From assembly GCA_043805855.1 (NCBI GenBank), contig JAZDHP010000053.1, positions 1 to 26,651 of the forward strand: a stretch of DNA of 26,651 bases, in the 5' to 3' direction. Position 1 is the first letter of the stretch, and each line of letters begins with the position of its first letter. This DNA comes from Candidatus Micrarchaeota archaeon (GTDB lineage: Archaea; Micrarchaeota; Micrarchaeia; Norongarragalinales; UBA8480). Under the pieces are notes generated by a model. That model made no database searches. It worked only from the letters and a program-made list of their open reading frames with translations, and was not told the origin of the DNA. This document shows positions 4,962-20,632 of the stretch, piece by piece. A program made the translations under genes and the position numbers.

Positions 4962-5636
4962 CTAGCCGCGTTTTTGCAAACCTTTGCTTGCCAACTCAGC
5001 GAGAATATCTTCAAAGTCACCAGCATGCTTTTCAGAAAAAGCTTTAATTGCAGCGCGATTGACCCTTCCAAAAAAATCAACGTAATTCGAAACAAGTTGC
5101 CCACGCGGCCAAACGCGCTGCTCGCCACTTTTCCTACCTTTTTCATATCCCGTCATATTTCTGCCATATTCTCCCGTAGCAGTTCCTTTTCGGCTATCTC
5201 TTAAAAGATCGTAAAAACGAAATTCAACAAAAACCTCATTTTCATGCGATTCAAATCGCTGTAACGAAGAACGCGACAAGTCAAAATCAGTAACTGGCGT
5301 TCCATGAAAATGAACCACTGGCACGTTGAAACCTTTTGAAGCTAGAAATTCAGTAACTTGCGCGTCAACTGGAACAGTAGCGTGCAACCGCTTGACAACT
5401 TCTTTGCTTAACTTCCGCTTCTCAGCAGTCTTCCACAGCCAGTGCGGCGTCCACCTAGCGGGAATTCTAACAACAACTGCACTGTGCTTCTCCCAACTTT
5501 CATGATGGTGCAACGCGATGTTTATTGTTCCTTCGTTCGGGTGGCGGCCGACGAACACAATTACCTTGCGCTTTGCTTCAGGCACAGCGCGCAGCAACTC
5601 CTCCATGTGTTTCAAATTCCTAGGCCGAAGAATCAT
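4962..5636 (-). CDS. Hypothetical protein
   Basis: 224-aa ORF filling the gap between the surface protein gene and tRNA-Ala; no family recognised. Confidence 0.6.
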   Translation of the reverse strand: MILRPRNLKHMEELLRAVPEAKRKVIVFVGRHPNEGTINIALHHHESWEKHSAVVVRIPARWTPHWLWKTAEKRKLSKEVVKRLHATVPVDAQVTEFLASKGFNVPVVHFHGTPVTDFDLSRSSLQRFESHENEVFVEFRFYDLLRDSRKGTATGEYGRNMTGYEKGRKSGEQRVWPRGQLVSNYVDFFGRVNRAAIKAFSEKHAGDFEDILAELASKGLQKRG

Positions 5637-5694
5637 ATACTAACGAGAACAAACAACCTTATAATTAATTACCTGCTAAAATAGTTCTACAAAT

Positions 5695-5827
5695 GGGCTT
5701 GTAGTCGAATGGTAAGACGCCGCCTCCGCAAGGTGGAGATTCCGGGTTCGATAAGCCTTTTCTTTAAAAAAGAAAAGCCTTCGGGAAAAGAAACTCCCGA
5801 AAACGCTCGAACATCCCGGCAAGTCCA
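5695..5827 (+). tRNA. tRNA-Ala(CGC) with a 61-nt BHB intron at 59/60 (5753-5813)
   Basis: Acceptor stem GGGCTTG/CAAGTCC with G3.U70 and A73; anticodon arm CCGCC-TCCGCAA-GGTGG; T-stem CCGGG/CCCGG. BHB: central helix TTCG/CGAA, bulges ATA and CAT, intron helix AGC/GCT. Spliced T-loop TTCGATT. CCA not encoded. Confidence 0.93.
5757..5793 (+). repeat. Three-tract (Y / R / mirror-R) element, copy A, in tRNA-Ala intron
   Basis: CTTTTCTTT-aaa-AAAGAAAAG-ccttcgg-GAAAAGAAA. Confidence 0.9.
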
Positions 5828-5832
5828 TAAGC

Positions 5833-5874
5833 CTTTTTTCTTTAAGAAAGAAAAAAGCCTTGGGAAAAAAGAAA
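5833..5874 (+). repeat. Three-tract element, copy B, in tRNA-Ala 3' trailer
   Basis: CTTTTTTCTTT-aag-AAAGAAAAAAG-ccttgg-GAAAAAAGAAA. Confidence 0.9.
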
Positions 5875-5901
5875 CTCTGAAAAGAAAAACCTTAGAAATT
5901 T

Positions 5902-6567
5902 CTAAAGTTTAACCACCTGATAATCTTGCACTTCTTTTTCTGACAAGCCACACCCGGCGTTTTTCAATGAATAGATAGCAGCGTGGAAAGCTGGCTCTGC
6001 ATCGCTGCCAAACGAATCAAAATAACCGCGCCTAGCTGCGGCGACGAGCAGTTCACTCGAACGAATTACATTAACCTTGCCAACTAAATTTGTAAATTCA
6101 CTGATAGCCTTTTGGTTAACCATAACTCGCGCGTTGTAAGCGAGGGAAATATTCTCCTGCAGCAGCGCAGGATCTTCAACCATTAACCGCGTTGTCTTCT
6201 CGTCAATTGCAAGCGCGTCGCACTTAAACTGCTTGTAAACCGCAAGACACGCTGCTTCGCCGCTGTGCAGCAAACGCAGTTGCTTACCACGAATAGAAAA
6301 ACTAGAATTAGCATAGTGAACTATACTGTCAACAAGCGACTGGTCAACGTTGACAATTTCCAAATCTCCATCTTCAATTGACTTACGCAAACGCAGCGCA
6401 GAGAAAGCATAGCGGCTCACGTTAATTGGCTTTAGCACAATTTCGCTTTCAACCGCCCTCGGTATAAGAAACTCGCCCCCCTTATGCGATAAGAATCTCA
6501 ACACCTTCACTAGACAAGTGCTGGAAAACGAAATCAAAGGCCCGCTATCACAAACAATTTTACTCAT
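5902..6567 (-). CDS. PIN-domain-like protein (DUF3368/VapC-like)
   Basis: 'IVCDSGPLI' (first acidic site), 'LHSGEAACLA' and 'LAIDEKTTR' follow the PIN acidic-residue pattern. Start reassigned to ATG 6567, which has GTGA upstream. Confidence 0.7.
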   Translation of the reverse strand: MSKIVCDSGPLISFSSTCLVKVLRFLSHKGGEFLIPRAVESEIVLKPINVSRYAFSALRLRKSIEDGDLEIVNVDQSLVDSIVHYANSSFSIRGKQLRLLHSGEAACLAVYKQFKCDALAIDEKTTRLMVEDPALLQENISLAYNARVMVNQKAISEFTNLVGKVNVIRSSELLVAAARRGYFDSFGSDAEPAFHAAIYSLKNAGCGLSEKEVQDYQVVKL

Positions 6568-6574
6568 GTAAACA

Positions 6575-7111
6575 TCACGTGAACAATTTATCCGCCAGTG
6601 CAATACGCTGGCTAACTTTTTTAGATTCAAACTTATCAGCAAGCGTCATAGCACCTAAATAGCTCAACAGTTCGCGGCGGTCTGCACTGGTTAACTCAAC
6701 CGCAATTCCAATAGACGCGCCGTGACTGTACAACTGAGATGCGGTTTTCAACCGCGCTTTTTCAACAACACTTACAACAAACCCGCCTAAATCACTACTT
6801 AGTTCGTCAATGTCAGTTAAAATATTGTCAATAATCCCGCTGCACGTGTTTCCAGTGCACTTTTCGCCCTGCGTTAAACGCTGGGTCAACTGCTGCGAAA
6901 ATTTCTTCCACCGTGAGCTGTGCACAATGTGCGGCTTGTCAAATAACTTCGCAAGTGCGAATGCAACGATGCTGAACTCAGCAATTTGTTGATCATTCAG
7001 CGCAAGCGCATCTTCGGCACAAACGTGGGCAAACTCTTTCAAACCATCAGTGTCCTGCGAGGCGAATAGTTTACGCAACGAGCTCAACCTTTCAGAAACA
7101 CTAACTTCCAT
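6575..7111 (-). CDS. Hypothetical protein with a UPF0175-like C-terminal HTH (possible antitoxin-like partner of the PIN protein)
   Basis: 'LYSHGASIGIAVELTS' resembles the UPF0175 pattern 'LY..G.IS.G.AAELAG'; ends 7 bp before the PIN gene start; its own start is uncertain. Confidence 0.5.
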   Translation of the reverse strand: MEVSVSERLSSLRKLFASQDTDGLKEFAHVCAEDALALNDQQIAEFSIVAFALAKLFDKPHIVHSSRWKKFSQQLTQRLTQGEKCTGNTCSGIIDNILTDIDELSSDLGGFVVSVVEKARLKTASQLYSHGASIGIAVELTSADRRELLSYLGAMTLADKFESKKVSQRIALADKLFT

Positions 7112-7217
7112 GCAAAACCAACACAAGACATACATAAAAAACAAACGTTTCTATTCGTCCACTTTGCGAACCGTAAACTTCAATAGCCTAACCACAATAA
7201 CAAACAAAGCAAAACAA

Positions 7218-7265
7218 CTATAAACCTTAGTTTAGCTAAGTTTAACTTAGGTGAATTAAGTTTAT
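7218..7265 (+). promoter_or_regulatory. TATA-like box followed by a 10-bp-phased operator array upstream of the TA pair
   Basis: CTATAAA at 7218, then CTTAGTTTAG CTAAGTTTAA CTTAGGTGAA TTAAGTTTAT; includes the perfect inverted repeat CTAAGTT-T-AACTTAG (7236-7250). Confidence 0.55.
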
Positions 7266-7551
7266 GAAAAGCGAGGGGAAAAGCAAAGTGAATGTTAACT
7301 TAATTGTAGACGACTACACAAACCGCGTGTTAGGCGTGATAAAAGAAAAATACGGGCTAAAAGACAAGGGAGAGGCTCTGTGTACTTTTGCCGATATGTA
7401 CGGCGATGATTTTGTTGAACGCGAAGTAAGAGAAGATGCCGCTAAAAGAATTATTGAAAGCTGCGACGCACATATCAAAAAATACGGCTACAAAGGAATG
7501 AGCGATAAGGAACTTATGAACTTACTCGGGATAACAAAAAATGACCTTTGA
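7264..7551 (+). CDS. Antitoxin, DUF2683-like
   Basis: 'VNLIVDDYTNRVLGVIKEKYGLKDKGEAL' matches the DUF2683 pattern as I recall it; overlaps the downstream toxin by 11 bp. Confidence 0.7.
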   Translation: MKSEGKSKVNVNLIVDDYTNRVLGVIKEKYGLKDKGEALCTFADMYGDDFVEREVREDAAKRIIESCDAHIKKYGYKGMSDKELMNLLGITKNDL

Positions 7552-7816
7552 ATATATTACTTCTGATAAATTAAAGCTCAAAATGACAGCTATAAGCAAA
7601 ACTGACAAAGCACTAGCAGTTAAACTATTCAAAAAAATAAAAGAAATTACCTCACGTGACAACAATACAATTGAATTTTACAAAAACTTACGGCAGCCAA
7701 TGCAAGAATACAAACGAGTTCACATTGACCCGTTTGTCTTAACTTTTAAAGTATATCAATCACACAACTTAATATTATTTGACGATCTTAACCATCACGA
7801 TAACATCTACAAATAA
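7541..7816 (+). CDS. RelE/ParE-superfamily toxin (YafQ/RelE-like mRNA interferase)
   Basis: 91 aa, basic; 'YKNLRQPMQEYKRVHIDPFVLTF...HHDNIY'. Confidence 0.8.
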   Translation: MTFEYITSDKLKLKMTAISKTDKALAVKLFKKIKEITSRDNNTIEFYKNLRQPMQEYKRVHIDPFVLTFKVYQSHNLILFDDLNHHDNIYK

Positions 7817-7841
7817 AAATGCGCAGAGGTAACAACATAGA

Positions 7842-8375
7842 GTGGCTTACTATTATCTAGATATTGAAACGTTCAGTGAATCGCTTCCTAACCCAATTAC
7901 GGACAAGATTATTTCAATTCAATTCCAGGAAATCACACCAATCGGAGAGCCAGCTGGAGAGCTAACGATTTTGAAAGAGTGGGAGAAAAGCGAAGAGCAA
8001 ATTCTACGCGAGTTTACACCACTCTTGAAACCGTGGGCTTTCATCCCGGTTGGGAATAATTTAAACTTCGAACGCAAATTCCTCAAAACTCGCTGCTTGC
8101 AACACGGCGTTCCATTTGACATCTACGATTTTACCTTCTCTACTCCATCAATAGACATTCAACCACTATTTGTGATTCTAAACAAGGGTAATTTCAAAGG
8201 GTGCGGCATGCACCACTTTACTTCCAAAAAGACAAACGGCGCCGTGATTGCTCCATGGTACAAGAAGAAAGAGTTTGACAAAATTGAGAACTATATCAGA
8301 GAGGAAACCAACGCTTTTCTTGAGTTTTACCAAAAATGCTGCTGTGAATTACCTAAACTAATTGAAAAAACCTAG
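7842..8375 (+). CDS. Standalone RNase H-like / DEDD 3'-5' exonuclease domain protein
   Basis: 'YLDIET' (Exo I), 'GNNLNFE' (Exo II-like) and 'YIREE' (Exo III-like); GAGGT upstream of the GTG. Confidence 0.7.
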   Translation: MAYYYLDIETFSESLPNPITDKIISIQFQEITPIGEPAGELTILKEWEKSEEQILREFTPLLKPWAFIPVGNNLNFERKFLKTRCLQHGVPFDIYDFTFSTPSIDIQPLFVILNKGNFKGCGMHHFTSKKTNGAVIAPWYKKKEFDKIENYIREETNAFLEFYQKCCCELPKLIEKT

Positions 8376-8431
8376 AAAATAGCAGCAAACTAGCTCTACA
8401 ACTTGTATCCACTAACCAGTTTAAAGTTAGA

Positions 8432-8467
8432 TTTATATACTCTCGACGTGTCATGATTGTGTCATGA
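8432..8467 (+). promoter_or_regulatory. TATA box with a downstream direct-repeat operator
   Basis: TTTATATA at 8432-8439; GTGTCATGA at 8448-8456 and 8459-8467, each containing the palindrome TCATGA. Confidence 0.55.
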
Positions 8468-8506
8468 CGATAACTAGATGCTGTTGAAGCAGCTGCGTTA
8501 ATCGTT

Positions 8507-8965
8507 ATGGTAAATGGGTATAAAAGGGTTATGGACTCGGGGGAGTTTGACAACGTAACCGCGGAGTTCCGCGAGTTTTCCTCTAGAATGAAGGATCCTA
8601 TTGTTGTTGGCACTTTACTTCACAAGTTAACAGAAGAGAGGCAATCCACTAACTTACTACTTAGAGAGATAAATGCTAAGCTAGACAAGTTGGGAGAAAT
8701 GGAAAAGAAATTCAGCGAACTTGAAGCTAAGATAAACAAAGTAAACGCACAAAAAGTGCCAGCCAAGAGTAAAATGTTGCCTGAAGTTGACGAAGCAATT
8801 ATTGCATTTATTAAAAGTAAAAGCGCGGTTTGCGCTGAAGATGTGCAGGAAGAATTTAAGTACAAAGGGAAAAACGCAGCGAGTGCTCGTTTGAACCGCT
8901 TGTGCAGCCTTGGGGTTTTGAAAAAATCTCAAGTTGGTAAGAGAGTTTTCTTTGAGAAGAATTGA
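8507..8965 (+). CDS. Coiled-coil plus C-terminal winged-HTH protein (putative regulator)
   Basis: Heptad region 'LLREINAKLDKLGEMEKKFSELEAKI', then wHTH-like 'AIIAFIK...AEDVQEEF...AASARLNRL...GVLKK...GKRVFF'. The true start may be ATG 8531. Confidence 0.7.
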   Translation: MVNGYKRVMDSGEFDNVTAEFREFSSRMKDPIVVGTLLHKLTEERQSTNLLLREINAKLDKLGEMEKKFSELEAKINKVNAQKVPAKSKMLPEVDEAIIAFIKSKSAVCAEDVQEEFKYKGKNAASARLNRLCSLGVLKKSQVGKRVFFEKN

Positions 8966-9216
8966 CGCTTGAAAGGCGTGCCTTTGTTCAACCCACCCAA
9001 AATTAACGAAGCACGCAGAACAAGACGAGGCGAATAGCCTCGGTAGGAAAGCGAGATAAACCATCTCGCCCACCAAACACCCCCAAAGACACGAGAGTGT
9101 CTTAAGGTGCTTAGTTCGAAACGCTATGGCGTTCGACACGATGAAGCACCAGGAGAACGTAAGAACCAGAGGATCGTAAAACACTTTTTGATTGCTGGGA
9201 AAACGTTCTCCTACCT
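8966..9216 (+). ncRNA. Candidate structured non-coding RNA, unassigned
   Basis: Six consecutive stems: 8976-9016, CGAGGC/GCCTCG, GCGAGAT/ATCTCGC, AAGACAC-GAGA-GTGTCTT, GGTGCTT/AAGCACC and AGGAGAACGT/ACGTTCTCCT; followed by a T-tract at 9218-9228. Confidence 0.6.
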
Positions 9217-12945: not shown

Positions 12946-12955
12946 TTTATTCGCC

Positions 12956-13001
12956 TTTCTTTTTGGGCCGAACAGGCCTTTTTCTTTTCTAAAGAAAAAG
13001 G
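12956..13001 (-). repeat. Three-tract element, copy D, in tRNA-His 3' trailer / hisS leader
   Basis: Minus strand: CTTTTTCTTT-aga-AAAGAAAAAG-gcctgttcggccc-AAAAAGAAA. Confidence 0.85.
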
Positions 13002-13009
13002 CGGTTTAG

Positions 13010-13144
13010 GGCAAGGGTCGGGATTTTCCAGCATTCGGTTTTCTTTTCCCGACGGCTTTTCTTTTTTCAAAAAGAAAAGGCTCTTTGAACCCGAGTCAAA
13101 GGATCCACAGTCCTCTATACTGACCAAGCTATACTACCCTCGCC
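13010..13144 (-). tRNA. tRNA-His(GTG) with encoded G-1 and a 60-nt intron at 59/60 (13083-13024)
   Basis: G-1/C73; acceptor stem GCGAGGG/CCCTTGC; anticodon arm GAGGA-CTGTGGA-TCCTT; T-stem TCGGG/CCCGA. BHB: central helix TTCA/GGAA (one A.G mismatch), bulges AAG and AAT, intron helix AGC/GCT. Spliced T-loop TTCAAAT. Confidence 0.93.
13039..13079 (-). repeat. Three-tract element, copy C, in tRNA-His intron
   Basis: Minus strand: CTTTTCTTTT-tgaa-AAAAGAAAAG-ccgtcgg-GAAAAGAAAA. Confidence 0.9.
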
Positions 13145-15853: not shown

Positions 15854-15968
15854 ACCAAAAAGTAACGCAAAACCACAATAAAAACACTCGCGGTTCACGC
15901 GAGACACACCCATTTAAAACAAAAACAACCTATAAACATAAAAGGGCCCGTAGCTCAGCCTGGCGATC

Positions 15969-16013
15969 CTTTTTCTTTTAAAAAAAGAAAAAGCAATCGA
16001 TGGAAAAAGAAAA
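15969..16013 (+). repeat. Three-tract element, copy E (Arg D-loop intron)
   Basis: CTTTTTCTTTT-aaa-AAAAGAAAAAG-caatcgatg-GAAAAAGAAAA. Confidence 0.9.
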
Positions 16014-16081
16014 CCAACGATTGCCTCTATAAATTAAAAGAAAATCGGTCAGGTAAATAGAGCGATTGCCTCCTAACGACC

Positions 16082-16125
16082 TTTTCTTTCTTAAAAGAAA
16101 GAAAACGATCGACGAAAAGAAAGAA
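16082..16125 (+). repeat. Three-tract element, copy F (Arg anticodon intron)
   Basis: TTTTCTTTCTT-aa-AAGAAAGAAAA-cgatcgacg-AAAAGAAAGAA. Confidence 0.9.
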
Positions 16126-16163
16126 TTTTGGAGCAAGCAATAGGTCCCGCGTTCGAAGACATC

Positions 16164-16203
16164 CCTTTTCTTCAAAAGAAAAGGTTCGTCACTCCTAAAA
16201 GAA
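16164..16203 (+). repeat. Three-tract element, copy G (Arg T-loop intron)
   Basis: ccTTTTCTT-caa-AAGAAAAgg-ttcgtcactcct-AAAAGAA. Confidence 0.85.
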
Positions 16204-16302
16204 CGGGTGAGTCGAAAATCGCGGCGGGCTCGCTTTTCTTTTTAGAAAAACGTTTAAAACGCAGCGTGTCCCAAATTGTTCTTGCGTTTTAAGGTGATTA
16301 GA

Positions 16303-17067: not shown

Positions 17068-18789
17068 TTAAACTAAATCTGTTTCTCTAGGTGAATTGTA
17101 CTGCGGAAAATTAGTGTTTAAATCTGAACGCAATTTAGCAATTTCGCTGTCGCACCAGCCGATCATTTTTATCATGTACGCTTCAATGCCTTCTTCATTA
17201 TGTTCTAGTACATCAAGTTGCATTTGAGCTGCATCGGCCCTCATTGTATCACCAGCTTGTCTATGGCGTTTTATTTCATCTAAAAGCTCTGGCCTAGCTT
17301 GTCGCATCATTGCTTCGTACTTTGCGGCCACTTTTTGCGGGTCCAATTCATCAAGTTGTATCTGAGTAGCGTCCACCATCTCAGTATCGCCAGCTTTCTT
17401 GTAGTACGCTTGCTGGTCTAAAAGTTCTGCTTTTTTTCTTTCTTTATCCCTCTTGGATGACTCTGATTCAGGCGCTTTTAGTTTAGCGTTCTTTTCTTTC
17501 ATTGCCTTTAGATTTTGTTCAAGTTCTTTCTTCGTATTTAGAAATGAAATGTATTTTTCTACCGCGAATCGGTTTTTCACAATTGCCTTTGCTCTTGGAT
17601 CGACTGCATCTGCGGCTTCAGAATACATTCTATCGCCTGCAATTGTAATCTTGCCAGTTATAATGAAGTCTCCAGGCGCATGTTTAGGCAAATTTGGATA
17701 TGCAATTTTGCCATTTGTCATGTTCTTAACTGGGTTTGGCGTTCCAAAAGTAACAACTGAACCATCTTTGCAAAGTTCAATATACGCCGAAATATCGTCG
17801 CAAACTTTTGACCCGCGAGGCGATTTCGTGGCGTTAATTTTTGCAACTACATTTTTAGGCATTTTTGCAGTTAATTTATCAATTATATTTCCAATCATTT
17901 GCGATGTGGGCAAAAACTCAATGGCAGGATACCCTGAAGCTATTTTCAAAAATTTATTCACGTCTTTACCGCTGTCTAGAATTTTCATGTTAAATATTCC
18001 TTTGATTAGCGAAACTGCAACGAAATTATAATTTATAACTGTGTTTGAAGAATTTCTCAGTATAACTTCAGTTTCTTTCGACGGAACCATAGACGACGGA
18101 GTTGGGTGCGATTCATTTCTAGTTAAAACCAAACTAACTTCTGAACTTGGATAAACAAATATTTCACGGCTATAATTATCATCTGACCTAATGTCGTTAA
18201 TTTGAACGTAAGAATGATCTTCAGTTTCAATTATATCGCCATTTTCTAAAATGAAAACAGTGTCCTTTGGATTCAAAAGTCTACTTCCCATTCCCAGCCC
18301 ACTGTCAAGTGGAGGTATTGCACTTGCAGGAAGTAGAATTCGTTGGCCTCCGCGCCTAACATACGCTCTACCAGTAGTTTTGAAAGTAGGCGCGTTTATT
18401 GAAGTGTACTTTACCGCATTTAAAAAGCCGAACCCGTTTTTCTTCAACATTTCTATCTTTGCTTTGAACCGGTCCTCGTAAGCATATTCAACAGATATTC
18501 CATTAACGTGTTTTGAAACCGCCACTGGCGGGTTAATTTTAAACTCTTCAACTATCTTTTGGCACTGTTCAATTTCTTCAAACTTTTGTCCAATTTGACG
18601 GCCTTGTACCCTACCTTCTTCAGTTTCTTTCGCATATTCGCCCATTCCAGCAGTTGCTTTTCTAGACGCAGTTTCTTTTAAGTTCATAAAACGCTTGAGA
18701 AACTCTTCGTCGCTTTCCTTCCCTGCGCTGGCAGTTGCCGCTTGTTTTGCAACAGTTGTTTGTTTTTTGGATTTTTTCGCAGAAGCCAT
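17068..18789 (-). CDS. Hypothetical protein with a FecR-like beta domain and a helical C-terminus containing an internal repeat
   Basis: 'GRAYVRRG...LENGDIIETEDHSYVQI...IFVYPSSEVSL...VSLIKGIF'; no signal peptide or TM helix seen. Confidence 0.55.
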   Translation of the reverse strand: MASAKKSKKQTTVAKQAATASAGKESDEEFLKRFMNLKETASRKATAGMGEYAKETEEGRVQGRQIGQKFEEIEQCQKIVEEFKINPPVAVSKHVNGISVEYAYEDRFKAKIEMLKKNGFGFLNAVKYTSINAPTFKTTGRAYVRRGGQRILLPASAIPPLDSGLGMGSRLLNPKDTVFILENGDIIETEDHSYVQINDIRSDDNYSREIFVYPSSEVSLVLTRNESHPTPSSMVPSKETEVILRNSSNTVINYNFVAVSLIKGIFNMKILDSGKDVNKFLKIASGYPAIEFLPTSQMIGNIIDKLTAKMPKNVVAKINATKSPRGSKVCDDISAYIELCKDGSVVTFGTPNPVKNMTNGKIAYPNLPKHAPGDFIITGKITIAGDRMYSEAADAVDPRAKAIVKNRFAVEKYISFLNTKKELEQNLKAMKEKNAKLKAPESESSKRDKERKKAELLDQQAYYKKAGDTEMVDATQIQLDELDPQKVAAKYEAMMRQARPELLDEIKRHRQAGDTMRADAAQMQLDVLEHNEEGIEAYMIKMIGWCDSEIAKLRSDLNTNFPQYNSPRETDLV

Positions 18790-18799
18790 TTTATAACCA

Positions 18800-19999
18800 C
18801 TATGCAACTTTTACCCCATCTTTTGTAACTGGCTTGTATACCCGCGGAGATTCAATAATTTGTTCAATATCAATACCTTCTGCCGTTGACATATTTTTCT
18901 GTTTCTTTAGCATTTCCATACCTGCCTTTTGACTTGATACTAACCGCTCTATTCCTTTGTCACCCATTCCTTCCATTAGCCCTTTTTGCATTGCCATTGC
19001 TTTTTTCATTTGGCCAAACATACCGTCTTTTTCCATTTTTTTAAGCATTTCAGGCATTTCTTTCATTCGTTCCATAACTTCGGGGCTAATTTTAGTGCCA
19101 CTTTTAGCTTCGCCTATTTTCATCATGCGAGTTAAGTCATCTGGAGACATTTGCTTGAACATTTCTAAACTTCCAACCATTTGCTCCATGTTTTTTGGCA
19201 TGTTTTTGTACGATTCAGCCATTTGTTTTTCGTCAACAGTAGGCATCGTCGCAGTGAGCTTGTTTTGAAAGAACCCGTTCAACGCAATAGCATTGTTAAA
19301 AATGTCGTCCATTTTGGTTAACCCCTTTCGGTAAATTGCATCTCGCGTTACAATTATCTCTTCAAAAGTAGTGGACTTTGCAGTGAACGAACGTTTAGTT
19401 GCCTTGTTTGTATATTCAACTCCGCCTGCGCCGATTGAAGTTGACGCTAATGGACTACTGTAAAGAACGTCGTCGCACACGTCAAAAAAACCGCTACCGT
19501 CAAAATTAAATTTTATCAAAGCAACTGGAGTTACGAGCACATCGTCAGTGTGAGAATATGAAACTTGAAAAAAACCTTTTTTCAACTCTATATTTTTTAT
19601 TAACTCCCCGTGACATCTTGTTTTCTCTTTGTTATCTTTTTTGTCCCATTTTTCAAAACCGCTAACTTGTAATTCGCTGTTTGGCCCCATGAAAACAGTT
19701 TTCGACGCTCTAGCTTTATAATCATCAATTGGATTTTCCTTTCCATTGTTATAGCTAGTAGTAAGATACACAATTGTCTTCGCGCCGCAAATTATCTTGT
19801 CGCCTTCCGCAAGTTTTGGAAATTCTTTTTTAGACTTTTCTAGTTTGGCGTTATCGTGAGTTTTTTGAAATTCTTCAATTAGCTTAGTTTCACTTTCACC
19901 AGAAGGAATTTTAATTTTCTTACTTCCCCTTGCAATAAAAGCATTTTCTCCACCAGCAGTTAGTCTAATATTTCCAGTTTCTATTTCATGATAAAGCAT
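18800..19999 (-). CDS. Hypothetical protein with a FecR-like domain and a Met-rich (STI1-like) helical C-terminus
   Basis: 'LAEGDKIICG...VFMGPNSELQV...IELKKGFF...LVTPVALI', then an M/K/E-rich tail ('MFKQMSPDDLTRMM'); GAGGT upstream. Confidence 0.6.
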   Translation of the reverse strand: MLYHEIETGNIRLTAGGENAFIARGSKKIKIPSGESETKLIEEFQKTHDNAKLEKSKKEFPKLAEGDKIICGAKTIVYLTTSYNNGKENPIDDYKARASKTVFMGPNSELQVSGFEKWDKKDNKEKTRCHGELIKNIELKKGFFQVSYSHTDDVLVTPVALIKFNFDGSGFFDVCDDVLYSSPLASTSIGAGGVEYTNKATKRSFTAKSTTFEEIIVTRDAIYRKGLTKMDDIFNNAIALNGFFQNKLTATMPTVDEKQMAESYKNMPKNMEQMVGSLEMFKQMSPDDLTRMMKIGEAKSGTKISPEVMERMKEMPEMLKKMEKDGMFGQMKKAMAMQKGLMEGMGDKGIERLVSSQKAGMEMLKKQKNMSTAEGIDIEQIIESPRVYKPVTKDGVKVA

Positions 20000-20089
20000 T
20001 TCAACAACCTCAACAAAAAATAACAGCTATCGCTTTTAAACCTAATCATTAGACGCAGTAATTTTTTCAAACAATACGAGACGCGCAAG

Positions 20090-20632
20090 CTACATACTGT
20101 TTTTAGCAATAAATTCTTGCAACTTAGCTGCTTGTGTTTTAGAAATTGACACGTAAGCTGCGGATTTATTGTCTTTAAAAGAAATTAGTCTATCCTTTGC
20201 AAGCGCACGTAGCAAGTTTTGCCTTGCTGACCTACAACAAATTAATTCCACATGTCCGGTATTTTTCGGTAACGCTCTTTTAATTCCACGGACCGCTACA
20301 AAGTGAAGCGGCTGCTCTATAACTCGGTTAAATTCTTGAAGCGCACATTCAACATCGCGGTCAAACGGTTGATCTTGTTTAAGCCATTGAACTTGTTCCT
20401 TTTCACTCGTGCTATTTACTAAAGTTGAAGCGTATAATCGCAGTGGCTCGTTTACATTACGATATAAAAATAATTTATCGAGATGTTCAACTGGCACGGT
20501 TACGGAAAAAACGCGTTTTTTGACGCGCCCAAAAAAACCAGGCTTGGCTCGCGTGTGCTCTTGCAGTAGGAGCATCGCCATTTGTAGTTTTGCGCGTTCA
20601 AAAATTTCAGGCATATACTGAATGTACGACAC
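20090..20632 (-). CDS. Hypothetical protein
   Basis: 180-aa ORF filling the space next to the divergent polD operon. Confidence 0.55.
   Translation of the reverse strand: MSYIQYMPEIFERAKLQMAMLLLQEHTRAKPGFFGRVKKRVFSVTVPVEHLDKLFLYRNVNEPLRLYASTLVNSTSEKEQVQWLKQDQPFDRDVECALQEFNRVIEQPLHFVAVRGIKRALPKNTGHVELICCRSARQNLLRALAKDRLISFKDNKSAAYVSISKTQAAKLQEFIAKNSM

What the first reader, a model, noticed from the sequence alone, without database searches (positions are those of the whole stretch)
5751..5885. tRNA-Ala intron is duplicated just outside the tRNA 3' end
Seen: 5751-5803 (ATAAGCCTTTTCTTTAAAAAAGAAAAGCCTTCGGGAAAAGAAACTCCCGAAAA) recurs 76 bp later at 5827 (ATAAGCCTTTTTTCTTTAAGAAAGAAAAAAGCCTTGGGAAAAAAGAAACTCTGAAAA), with the same ATAAGCC start. 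The trailer copy lacks the GCTCGAACA half that completes the BHB. Inference: this may be a snapshot of intron birth from a trailer element, or of intron escape into flanking DNA.
Basis: partly seen in the sequence, partly recalled or inferred. Interest (0 to 1): 0.72.

Follow-up and report, generated by a model that had tools for sequence, protein, structure and literature searches.

The report
Triplex-type repeat colonising archaeal tRNA genes
The look-alike intron and downstream copy at this alanine tRNA gene are not a local duplication but two separately arrived members of a family of about 50-base repeats, shaped like a three-stranded helix, that fills most tRNA introns of a tiny archaeon and gives a concrete candidate for how such introns arise.

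Summary
Both copies are real: a 61-nt intron at position 59/60 of tRNA-Ala(CGC) with a strict BHB, and a related copy 1 nt after the discriminator. They are not a local duplication. The neighbouring intron is only the trailer's 6th-best match of 75, and seven orthologues show all four intron/trailer presence combinations, with different subtypes. Both belong to a family of 74 copies in this Micrarchaeota genome, 58 of them in tRNA introns. Each is a pyrimidine tract, its reverse complement and a mirror-image purine tract; the mirror run length matches in 68 of 71, an intrastrand-triplex signature. The pattern occurs in 44 of 68 genomes of the order. In six cases the bare 39-62-nt element lies between 32-82-nt duplications of a host gene end, and one relative has the empty site. 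No RT, Y1 transposase or integrase tracks with it. Best reading: a DNA repeat copied by template switching, kept as an intron where a BHB closes. The scan found this family before, in this and other genomes; I found no paper describing it. Triplex formation, splicing and mobility are untested.

The parts
5695..5752 (+). tRNA-Ala(CGC) 5' exon (positions 1-59; G3.U70 pair; unusual C at position 33)
   Evidence: Spliced product called tRNA-Ala(cgc) by ARAGORN; exon near-invariant in 7 orthologues
5753..5813 (+). 61-nt intron at 59/60 with strict BHB (4-bp central helix, 3-bp inner and 5-bp outer helix)
   Evidence: Only boundary pair passing the BHB test; fold; absent in G001 and L171
5753..5793 (+). 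Intronic repeat copy: pyrimidine tract 5757-5765, its reverse complement 5769-5777, mirror purine tract 5785-5793 (run lengths 4/4/4)
5814..5827 (+). tRNA-Ala 3' exon, ending at discriminator A73; CCA end not encoded
5829..5874 (+). Trailer repeat copy: pyrimidine tract 5833-5843, reverse complement 5847-5857, mirror purine tract 5864-5874 (run lengths 6/6/6); no BHB, no flanking target duplication
5880..5898 (+). Probable left-over tail of an older trailer element of another subtype
   Evidence: Aligns with the third arm and following bases of the trailer elements in G002 and G003; inference
12946..13006 (-). Trailer copy behind tRNA-His, just before the hisS start; subtype differs from the His intron
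   Evidence: neighbour ranks 13 of 75; G002 has a trailer of another subtype and no intron
13024..13085 (-). Copy in the T-loop intron of tRNA-His(GTG)
15944..16232 (+). tRNA-Arg(CCT) with three introns, each opening with a copy (hairpins at 15969, 16082, 16164); ends approximate
   Evidence: isotype read by eye from the exons

Best explanation
Intron and trailer are two independently placed copies of a non-coding repeat of about 40-60 nt, dispersed through Micrarchaeota genomes. Its three tracts (pyrimidine, reverse complement, mirror purine) fit an intrastrand triplex, more likely in single-stranded DNA than in the pre-tRNA. SHOWN: the family, its three-way covariation, its positions, filled and empty sites, and long flanking duplications at some copies. 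INFERRED: it spreads at DNA level with no enzyme of its own. A growing strand that has just copied an exon or gene end switches, by a few matching bases, onto an existing copy, reads through the third tract and returns. A return upstream gives the element between two copies of the gene end, leaving an intact gene with a leader or trailer copy. A return in register gives an interruption that survives only where a BHB closes for the broad-specificity epsilon2 endonuclease, which makes it an intron. Occupied sites are then overwritten by other subtypes. The focal trailer is such an overwrite of an older trailer element by a T-loop-intron-type copy, the tRNA-Ala(GGC) intron being the closest present-day match.
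For: Family: 76 hairpins against 0-1 in shuffles; nhmmer 76 hits at E<=0.01, some being the same copy on both strands, against 0 in the reversed genome. Mirror rule: 68 of 71 parsed copies against 17 of 71 for a direct-repeat reading; permutation mean 24, maximum 38 of 20,000. Run lengths change together within single linker subfamilies, e.g. 3, 4, 5, 6 and 7 in one (19 of 21 equal in all three arms). The orthologous intron goes from 4/4/4 (G000, G003) to 7/7/7 (G002) with a matched C-to-T, G-to-A, G-to-A change (read by eye). Independence: four presence combinations in 7 orthologues; L171 has a new trailer subtype in front of the old one's tail; L173 has an unrelated intron at the same site. 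DNA-level signs: 5 antisense copies in introns and 4 in flanks (my classification); 5 copies 1-9 nt behind stop codons; one in 23S rRNA. Duplications: six inserts of 39-62 nt between 32-82-nt repeats; endA 3' end filled in G000 and G002 with different subtypes, empty in G003. EndA matches PDB 4FZ2 at E 9e-131; by my recall that entry is the ARMAN-2 epsilon2 enzyme, which cut a 59/60 intron in vitro (PMC3239211, passages). RT was found in 3 of 68 genomes, all three without the pattern.
Against: No triplex, splicing product or insertion event was observed. Copies are related, so 68 of 71 overstates independent events; a stricter parse gave all three runs equal in only 58 of 70 own and 30 of 46 relatives' copies, some misses being parse errors. 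Five of the 76 hairpins have no third arm. Flanking duplications occur at only 3 of 74 own copies and 11 of 96 relatives' matches; two of those look like chance, one is counted twice and two are orthologous. The focal trailer has none (score 30; null 95th percentile 34). Template switching does not itself make mirror symmetry, so selection on the third arm must be assumed. The strong bias to tRNA genes (65 of 74 inside or beside) is not fully explained. The empty endA site in G003 may be a loss by recombination between the repeats.
Confidence: 0.5

Rival explanations
1. Host-maintained functional element. The three-tract motif is kept by selection at RNA boundaries, as a terminator or pause site (U-rich tract just after tRNAs and stop codons) or as a protein-binding or processing signal, and is homogenised by ordinary gene conversion between conserved exons.
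For: The pyrimidine end abuts exon or gene ends; 5 of 8 non-tRNA, non-rRNA copies tested lie 1-9 nt after a stop codon on the same strand; 53 of 58 intronic copies are sense (my classification); the architecture is kept across the phylum (56 of 251 genomes).
Against: Dispensable at this locus: G001, L172 and L173 lack the trailer, G001 and L171 the intron. The G002 and G003 trailers have decayed hairpins. 24 of 68 genomes of the order show no match. A terminator inside an intron would be harmful. One subtype sits at unrelated sites in both orientations.
Confidence: 0.2
2. RNA route. Excised introns re-insert into other RNAs by reverse splicing (EndA plus ligase) or join to processed tRNA 3' ends, and reach DNA by reverse transcription and recombination, as proposed for intron transposition in Thermoproteales.
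For: Most copies are introns and sense; the trailer starts 1 nt after the discriminator; precise absence of the intron in G001 and L171; broad-specificity EndA present.
Against: RT not found in G000 (92% complete) nor in any of the 44 pattern-positive genomes. Antisense copies and copies after stop codons exist. The mirror tract fits a purine-motif triplex, which Holder et al. state cannot form in RNA (PMC4666352, passage).
Confidence: 0.15
3. Local duplication: the trailer was copied from the adjacent intron, or the intron from the trailer, and they diverged or one was later converted.
For: Same leader and same broad subfamily (rank 6 of 75). The orthologous G002 intron is a long-run variant resembling the G000 trailer, so the neighbour may once have looked like it.
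Against: Five distant copies match the trailer better. The short-run intron is shared by G000 and G003 although G003 is sister to G002, so it is probably the older state. Intron and trailer subtypes differ in the other two sense pairs of this genome and in G002 and G003.
Confidence: 0.1
4. Assembly artefact.
For: Draft metagenome assembly of 67 contigs; no reads could be checked.
Against: The trailer is identical to no other copy (best 0.87). Independent assemblies G002, G003 and L171 have an element at the same spot with syntenic DNA downstream.
Confidence: 0.02

Closest known systems
Class II intrastrand triplex repeats of bacteria: BoxC / PIT elements / TMECO (Holder et al. 2015, PMC4666352; passages read)
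   Same: Pyrimidine, purine, reverse-Hoogsteen order 5' to 3'; short dispersed repeat; not linked to transposons; variable between related genomes; PIT elements block DNA polymerase in vitro (as cited there).
   Different: TMECO is G/C-rich, near-identical between copies and always intergenic, with 23 copies in E. coli. This family is A/T-rich, varies in run length and linker, and is 58 of 74 inside tRNA introns. The word tRNA does not occur in that paper's main text.
Intron families shared among tRNA genes of Thermoproteales (Fujishima et al. 2010; not read, known through passages of PMC3239211 and bioRxiv 10.64898/2026.10.13.758758)
   Same: [quoted passage not shown]
   Different: Here the shared unit is a defined three-tract element that also lies outside introns, in both orientations, in 23S rRNA and behind genes, sometimes with long target duplications.
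Non-canonical 59/60 introns and epsilon2 EndA of ARMAN-2 (PMC3239211, passages)
   Same: Same phylum, same intron position, homologous enzyme.
   Different: The introns tested there are 13 and 25 nt; the passages read describe no shared repeat.
Insertion with long target duplication (Nobusato et al. 2000; label taken from earlier scan notes; paper not read)
   Same: Recombinase-free insert between long, variable copies of a host gene end; empty site in a relative.
   Different: Described for gene cassettes such as restriction-modification units; here the insert is a 39-62-nt non-coding repeat, and only a minority of copies show it.

Membership tests
Archaeal BHB tRNA intron | Bulge-helix-bulge at the exon-intron junctions | tested here: met
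   One boundary pair gives 4-bp H with 3-bp and 5-bp flanks; fold agrees
Archaeal BHB tRNA intron | Removal restores a tRNA; intron-less orthologue exists | tested here: met
Archaeal BHB tRNA intron | Splicing endonuclease able to cut non-canonical positions is encoded | tested here: met
   388-aa EndA, full-length match to 4FZ2, E 9e-131
Archaeal BHB tRNA intron | Spliced in vivo | not testable with these tools
   No sequencing run was listed
Class II intrastrand triplex motif (ITxF) | Pyrimidine tract, complementary purine tract, then mirror purine tract | tested here: met
   Full-length mirror in both focal copies, 9 of 9 and 11 of 11 nt; 68 of 71 family-wide
Class II intrastrand triplex motif (ITxF) | Physical triplex formation | not testable with these tools
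   Needs CD, melting or DMS; ViennaRNA models only the hairpin
BoxC / TMECO family proper | G/C-rich conserved consensus, always intergenic | tested here: not met
   A/T-rich tracts, mostly intronic against the paper's description
MITE or REP moved by a transposase | Terminal inverted repeats and short fixed target duplication | tested here: not met
   The inverted repeat is internal and the 3' end is a mirror tract; duplications, where present, are long and variable
MITE or REP moved by a transposase | Cognate transposase co-occurs | tested here: inconclusive
   Y1_Tnp in 8 of 44 pattern-positive and 10 of 24 pattern-negative genomes, none in G000-G003; DDE families not searched; assemblies incomplete
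Retroelement-derived repeat | Reverse transcriptase available | tested here: not met
   RVT_1 in 3 of 68 genomes, none pattern-positive; other RT models not searched
Insertion with long target duplication | Insert between long direct repeats, with an empty site in a relative | tested here: met
   endA site; six bare-element cases. Not met at the focal trailer

The most novel reading that the evidence does not exclude
A minimal mobile DNA with no gene and no dedicated enzyme, whose intrastrand triplex is itself the propagation signal: it captures replicating strands at structured gene boundaries, is copied in with long target duplications or in register, and is the main source of new tRNA and rRNA introns in Micrarchaeota with epsilon2 EndA.
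Probability: 0.3. Interest if true: 0.85.

Novelty: new variant of a known kind. Interest (0 to 1): 0.64.

Why it matters
How non-canonical archaeal tRNA introns arrive is open: a 2026 preprint on Asgard archaea tested copying between tRNAs, mobile elements and reverse transcription and found no general route (bioRxiv 10.64898/2026.10.13.758758, passages). Here one short defined element opens most introns found in a genome, exists free beside genes, has filled and empty sites in relatives, and leaves insertion scars. That makes intron gain testable with oligonucleotides and population data. The three-way covariation is also natural evidence of selection on a triplex. It explains why standard tools miss most tRNAs here: ARAGORN finds 11 in the genome at default settings.

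Tried and rejected
Local duplication: failed the rank test and the orthologue test. Direct-repeat reading of the third tract: 17 of 71 against 68 of 71 for mirror. Target duplication at the three sense trailers: none above null (scores 30, 23, 25). Known RNA family: no Rfam hit in the window. Viral carrier: one strict pattern gave 0 matches in IMG/VR; other subtypes were not tried. Mobilising enzymes: RT, Y1 transposase and tyrosine recombinase do not track the element; the recombinase was found in 33 of 68 genomes but not in G001, G002, G021, G029 or G056, which carry many copies. Reads: no run was listed, so neither assembly nor splicing was checked. The named-genome search with HisRS gave only distant hits; the phylum comes from DP1 homologues. 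Relaxed ARAGORN gave mostly false calls; I used spliced alignment to 44 intron-free templates and curated by eye, and several alignments were wrong at the 3' end or for missing isotypes. The C10:28990 copy first looked CRISPR-like but is a duplicated endA end. The apparent split of G002 endA is an assembly gap. Kadnikov et al. 2020 on a Micrarchaeota genome is not held; I recall that it reports many introns, and it may describe related repeats. Paper searches that found no description of the family. No supplements were opened.

Full report
Setting. The window is contig C53 of a 1.03-Mb, 67-contig genome, 92% complete. It encodes DP1 and DP2, and the named DP1 homologues are labelled Micrarchaeota.

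The observation. The tRNA is 5695-5827. One pair of boundaries, 5753-5813, gives a strict BHB, and the spliced product is called tRNA-Ala(CGC). G001 and L171 have the same gene without the insert, fixing it at 59/60. The genome encodes a 388-aa EndA matching PDB 4FZ2 over its length; I recall that entry as the ARMAN-2 epsilon2 enzyme, and that enzyme cut a 59/60 intron in vitro (PMC3239211, passages). The trailer copy starts one base after the discriminator and has no BHB.

Not a local duplicate. Against the other 75 hairpins of the genome, the trailer's best match is the T-loop intron of tRNA-Ala(GGC) on another contig (0.87); the neighbouring intron is 6th (0.71). The intron's best match is C8:2984 (0.92); the trailer is 8th. 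For the other two sense intron-trailer pairs the neighbour ranks 13th and 4th. Seven orthologues of this tRNA were compared: four genomes of the genus and all three metagenome hits. G000, G002 and G003 have intron and trailer; L171 trailer only; L172 a family intron of another subtype and no trailer; L173 an unrelated intron at the same site and no trailer; G001 neither. G002 and G003 share a decayed trailer of another subtype. L171 has a third subtype in front of what looks like that older element's tail, and G000 keeps a similar tail at 5880-5898. I infer that the tRNA 3' end is an old landing site whose front part was overwritten at least twice. G002 and G003 are sisters, yet G000 and G003 share the short-run intron, so it is probably the older state. 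An old local copy remains possible at low odds, since both copies are of one broad subfamily.

The family. A motif-light search found 76 pyrimidine/purine hairpins against 1, 1 and 0 in three shuffles. My classification by eye: 58 in tRNA introns (53 sense, 5 antisense; one is probably a contig-end duplicate), 7 at tRNA flanks (3 sense trailers, 2 antisense trailers, 2 antisense leaders), 1 in 23S rRNA, 1 behind a C/D-box-like RNA (below Rfam's cut-off), 5 lying 1-9 nt behind a stop codon, 1 behind endA, 1 some 90 nt upstream of tRNA-Tyr, and 2 non-members. The pyrimidine end nearly always faces the nearest exon or gene end, in either orientation; several introns have one copy at each end pointing inward (seen, not counted). 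A fixed pattern matches 44 of 68 genomes of the order, with 3 matches in all for the backward control, and 56 of 251 of the phylum, patchily. It had no match in IMG/VR.

The third tract. Each copy carries, after a variable linker, a purine tract that mirrors the hairpin's purine arm. The diagnostic run length matched in 68 of 71 parsed copies under the mirror reading and 17 of 71 under a direct-repeat reading; 5 of 76 had no third tract; permutations gave a mean of 24 and a maximum of 38. Copies are related, so the better evidence is change within subfamilies: one linker class shows runs of 3, 4, 5, 6 and 7, equal in all three arms in 19 of 21 copies, and most other classes show two or three lengths. 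A stricter parse gave all three equal in 58 of 70 own and 30 of 46 relatives' copies, with some parse errors. This order is class II of Holder et al. (PMC4666352, passages), who state that purine-motif triplexes cannot form in RNA and cite polymerase blocking by PIT elements in vitro, with no effect seen in vivo. By their definitions the opposite strand is a pyrimidine-motif class (my derivation). Templated synthesis cannot write a mirror copy (established knowledge), so the symmetry implies selection, on the host or on the element's copying. Decayed trailers in G002 and G003 and empty orthologues favour the second, weakly.

Insertion scars. Direct repeats bracket 3 of 74 own members (4 of 76 with a non-member; null 5 of 300) and 11 of 96 matches in G001-G003 (two chance-like, one counted twice, two orthologous). 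I realigned 11 chosen cases: 8 exceed the 99th percentile of a null, though they were pre-selected; the first repeat ends 1-9 nt before the pyrimidine tract in all 11; in six the insert is 39-62 nt, the element alone, between repeats of 32-82 nt. The repeats are tRNA 5' or 3' ends and protein-gene ends. At endA, G000 and G002 carry different subtypes in front of a duplicate of the last ten codons, starting at the same base, and G003 is empty. The focal trailer has no such duplication.

Mechanism. I favour copying at DNA level by template switching at gene boundaries, with EndA as the filter that turns in-register insertions into introns (confidence 0.5). The steps are inferred. RT was found in 3 of 68 genomes, none with the pattern; Y1 transposase in 8 of 44 positive and 10 of 24 negative genomes; tyrosine recombinase in 33 of 68, missing from several rich in copies. 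Rivals are a host-kept boundary signal (0.2), an RNA route (0.15), local duplication (0.1) and artefact (0.02). The strong tRNA bias and the origin of new BHBs are not fully explained.

Standing. It works like bacterial class II triplex repeats and like Thermoproteales intron families, but is a member of neither BoxC/TMECO nor any transposase-driven class tested. Eight searches of the paper library found no description; Kadnikov et al. 2020 and Fujishima et al. 2010 were not read. The scan has noted the family many times, in this and other genomes; I had reached the triplex reading before looking. What this locus adds is the four-way independence of intron and trailer, the stacked overwriting at the tRNA 3' end, and the long target duplications, for which one word search of earlier notes found no match on this family.

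Noticed in passing
window 5726-5732; L002-L004, L171-L173: tRNA-Ala(CGC) has C instead of U at position 33 in all seven orthologues compared; relatives outside the genus have U (L005-L007). The three metagenome hits were selected on this letter.
   Followed up: partly
G000 C10:28950-29060 (L028); L117; L113: The last ten codons of endA are duplicated behind an antisense element in G000 and G002, and the site is empty in G003; the three differences between the G000 copies fall at third codon positions.
   Followed up: yes
G000 C1:2532, C4:1210, C8:9640, C9:21725, C12:7631, C29:47608, C45:23401, C56:2300 and others: A second repeat, 14 copies, made of two hairpins around a fixed core; several are nested inside other repeats, three inside triplex-type copies where they displace the third tract.
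   Followed up: partly
G000 C6:15368, C9:30556, C21:13225, C22:4452, C45:18274, C47:15941 and others: A third, G/C-rich hairpin repeat, 11 matches, found in tRNA introns, just upstream of tRNA genes and elsewhere.
   Followed up: partly
G000 C5:60400-60520 (L119); L143: An insert in the 23S rRNA gene carries one sense copy and a decayed antisense copy; a G002 copy (L143) lies in rRNA-like sequence with BHB-like ends.
   Followed up: partly
G000 C63:10310-10400 (L122): A C/D-box-like small RNA (Rfam below cut-off) is followed by a family copy and then several tandem repeats of its purine tail.
   Followed up: no
L004 behind tRNA-Ala; L020 behind a tRNA: G/C-rich trailers with one G run and two C runs stand where other genomes have the A/T-rich element; possibly a G/C triplex-type counterpart.
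   Followed up: no
G000 C40:20720-20780: A copy fills the short gap between a stop codon and the next gene, which read by eye as ribosomal protein S7 and EF-2; G001 (L160) has another subtype at what looks like the same gap.
   Followed up: partly
G000 C20 end and C31 start: The same tRNA 3' half and element appear on both contigs, probably an assembly overlap.
   Followed up: no
window 4962-9184, 17068-20632: Several ORFs of 90-580 aa without a Pfam match at cut-off, including both neighbours of the tRNA-Ala gene.
   Followed up: no
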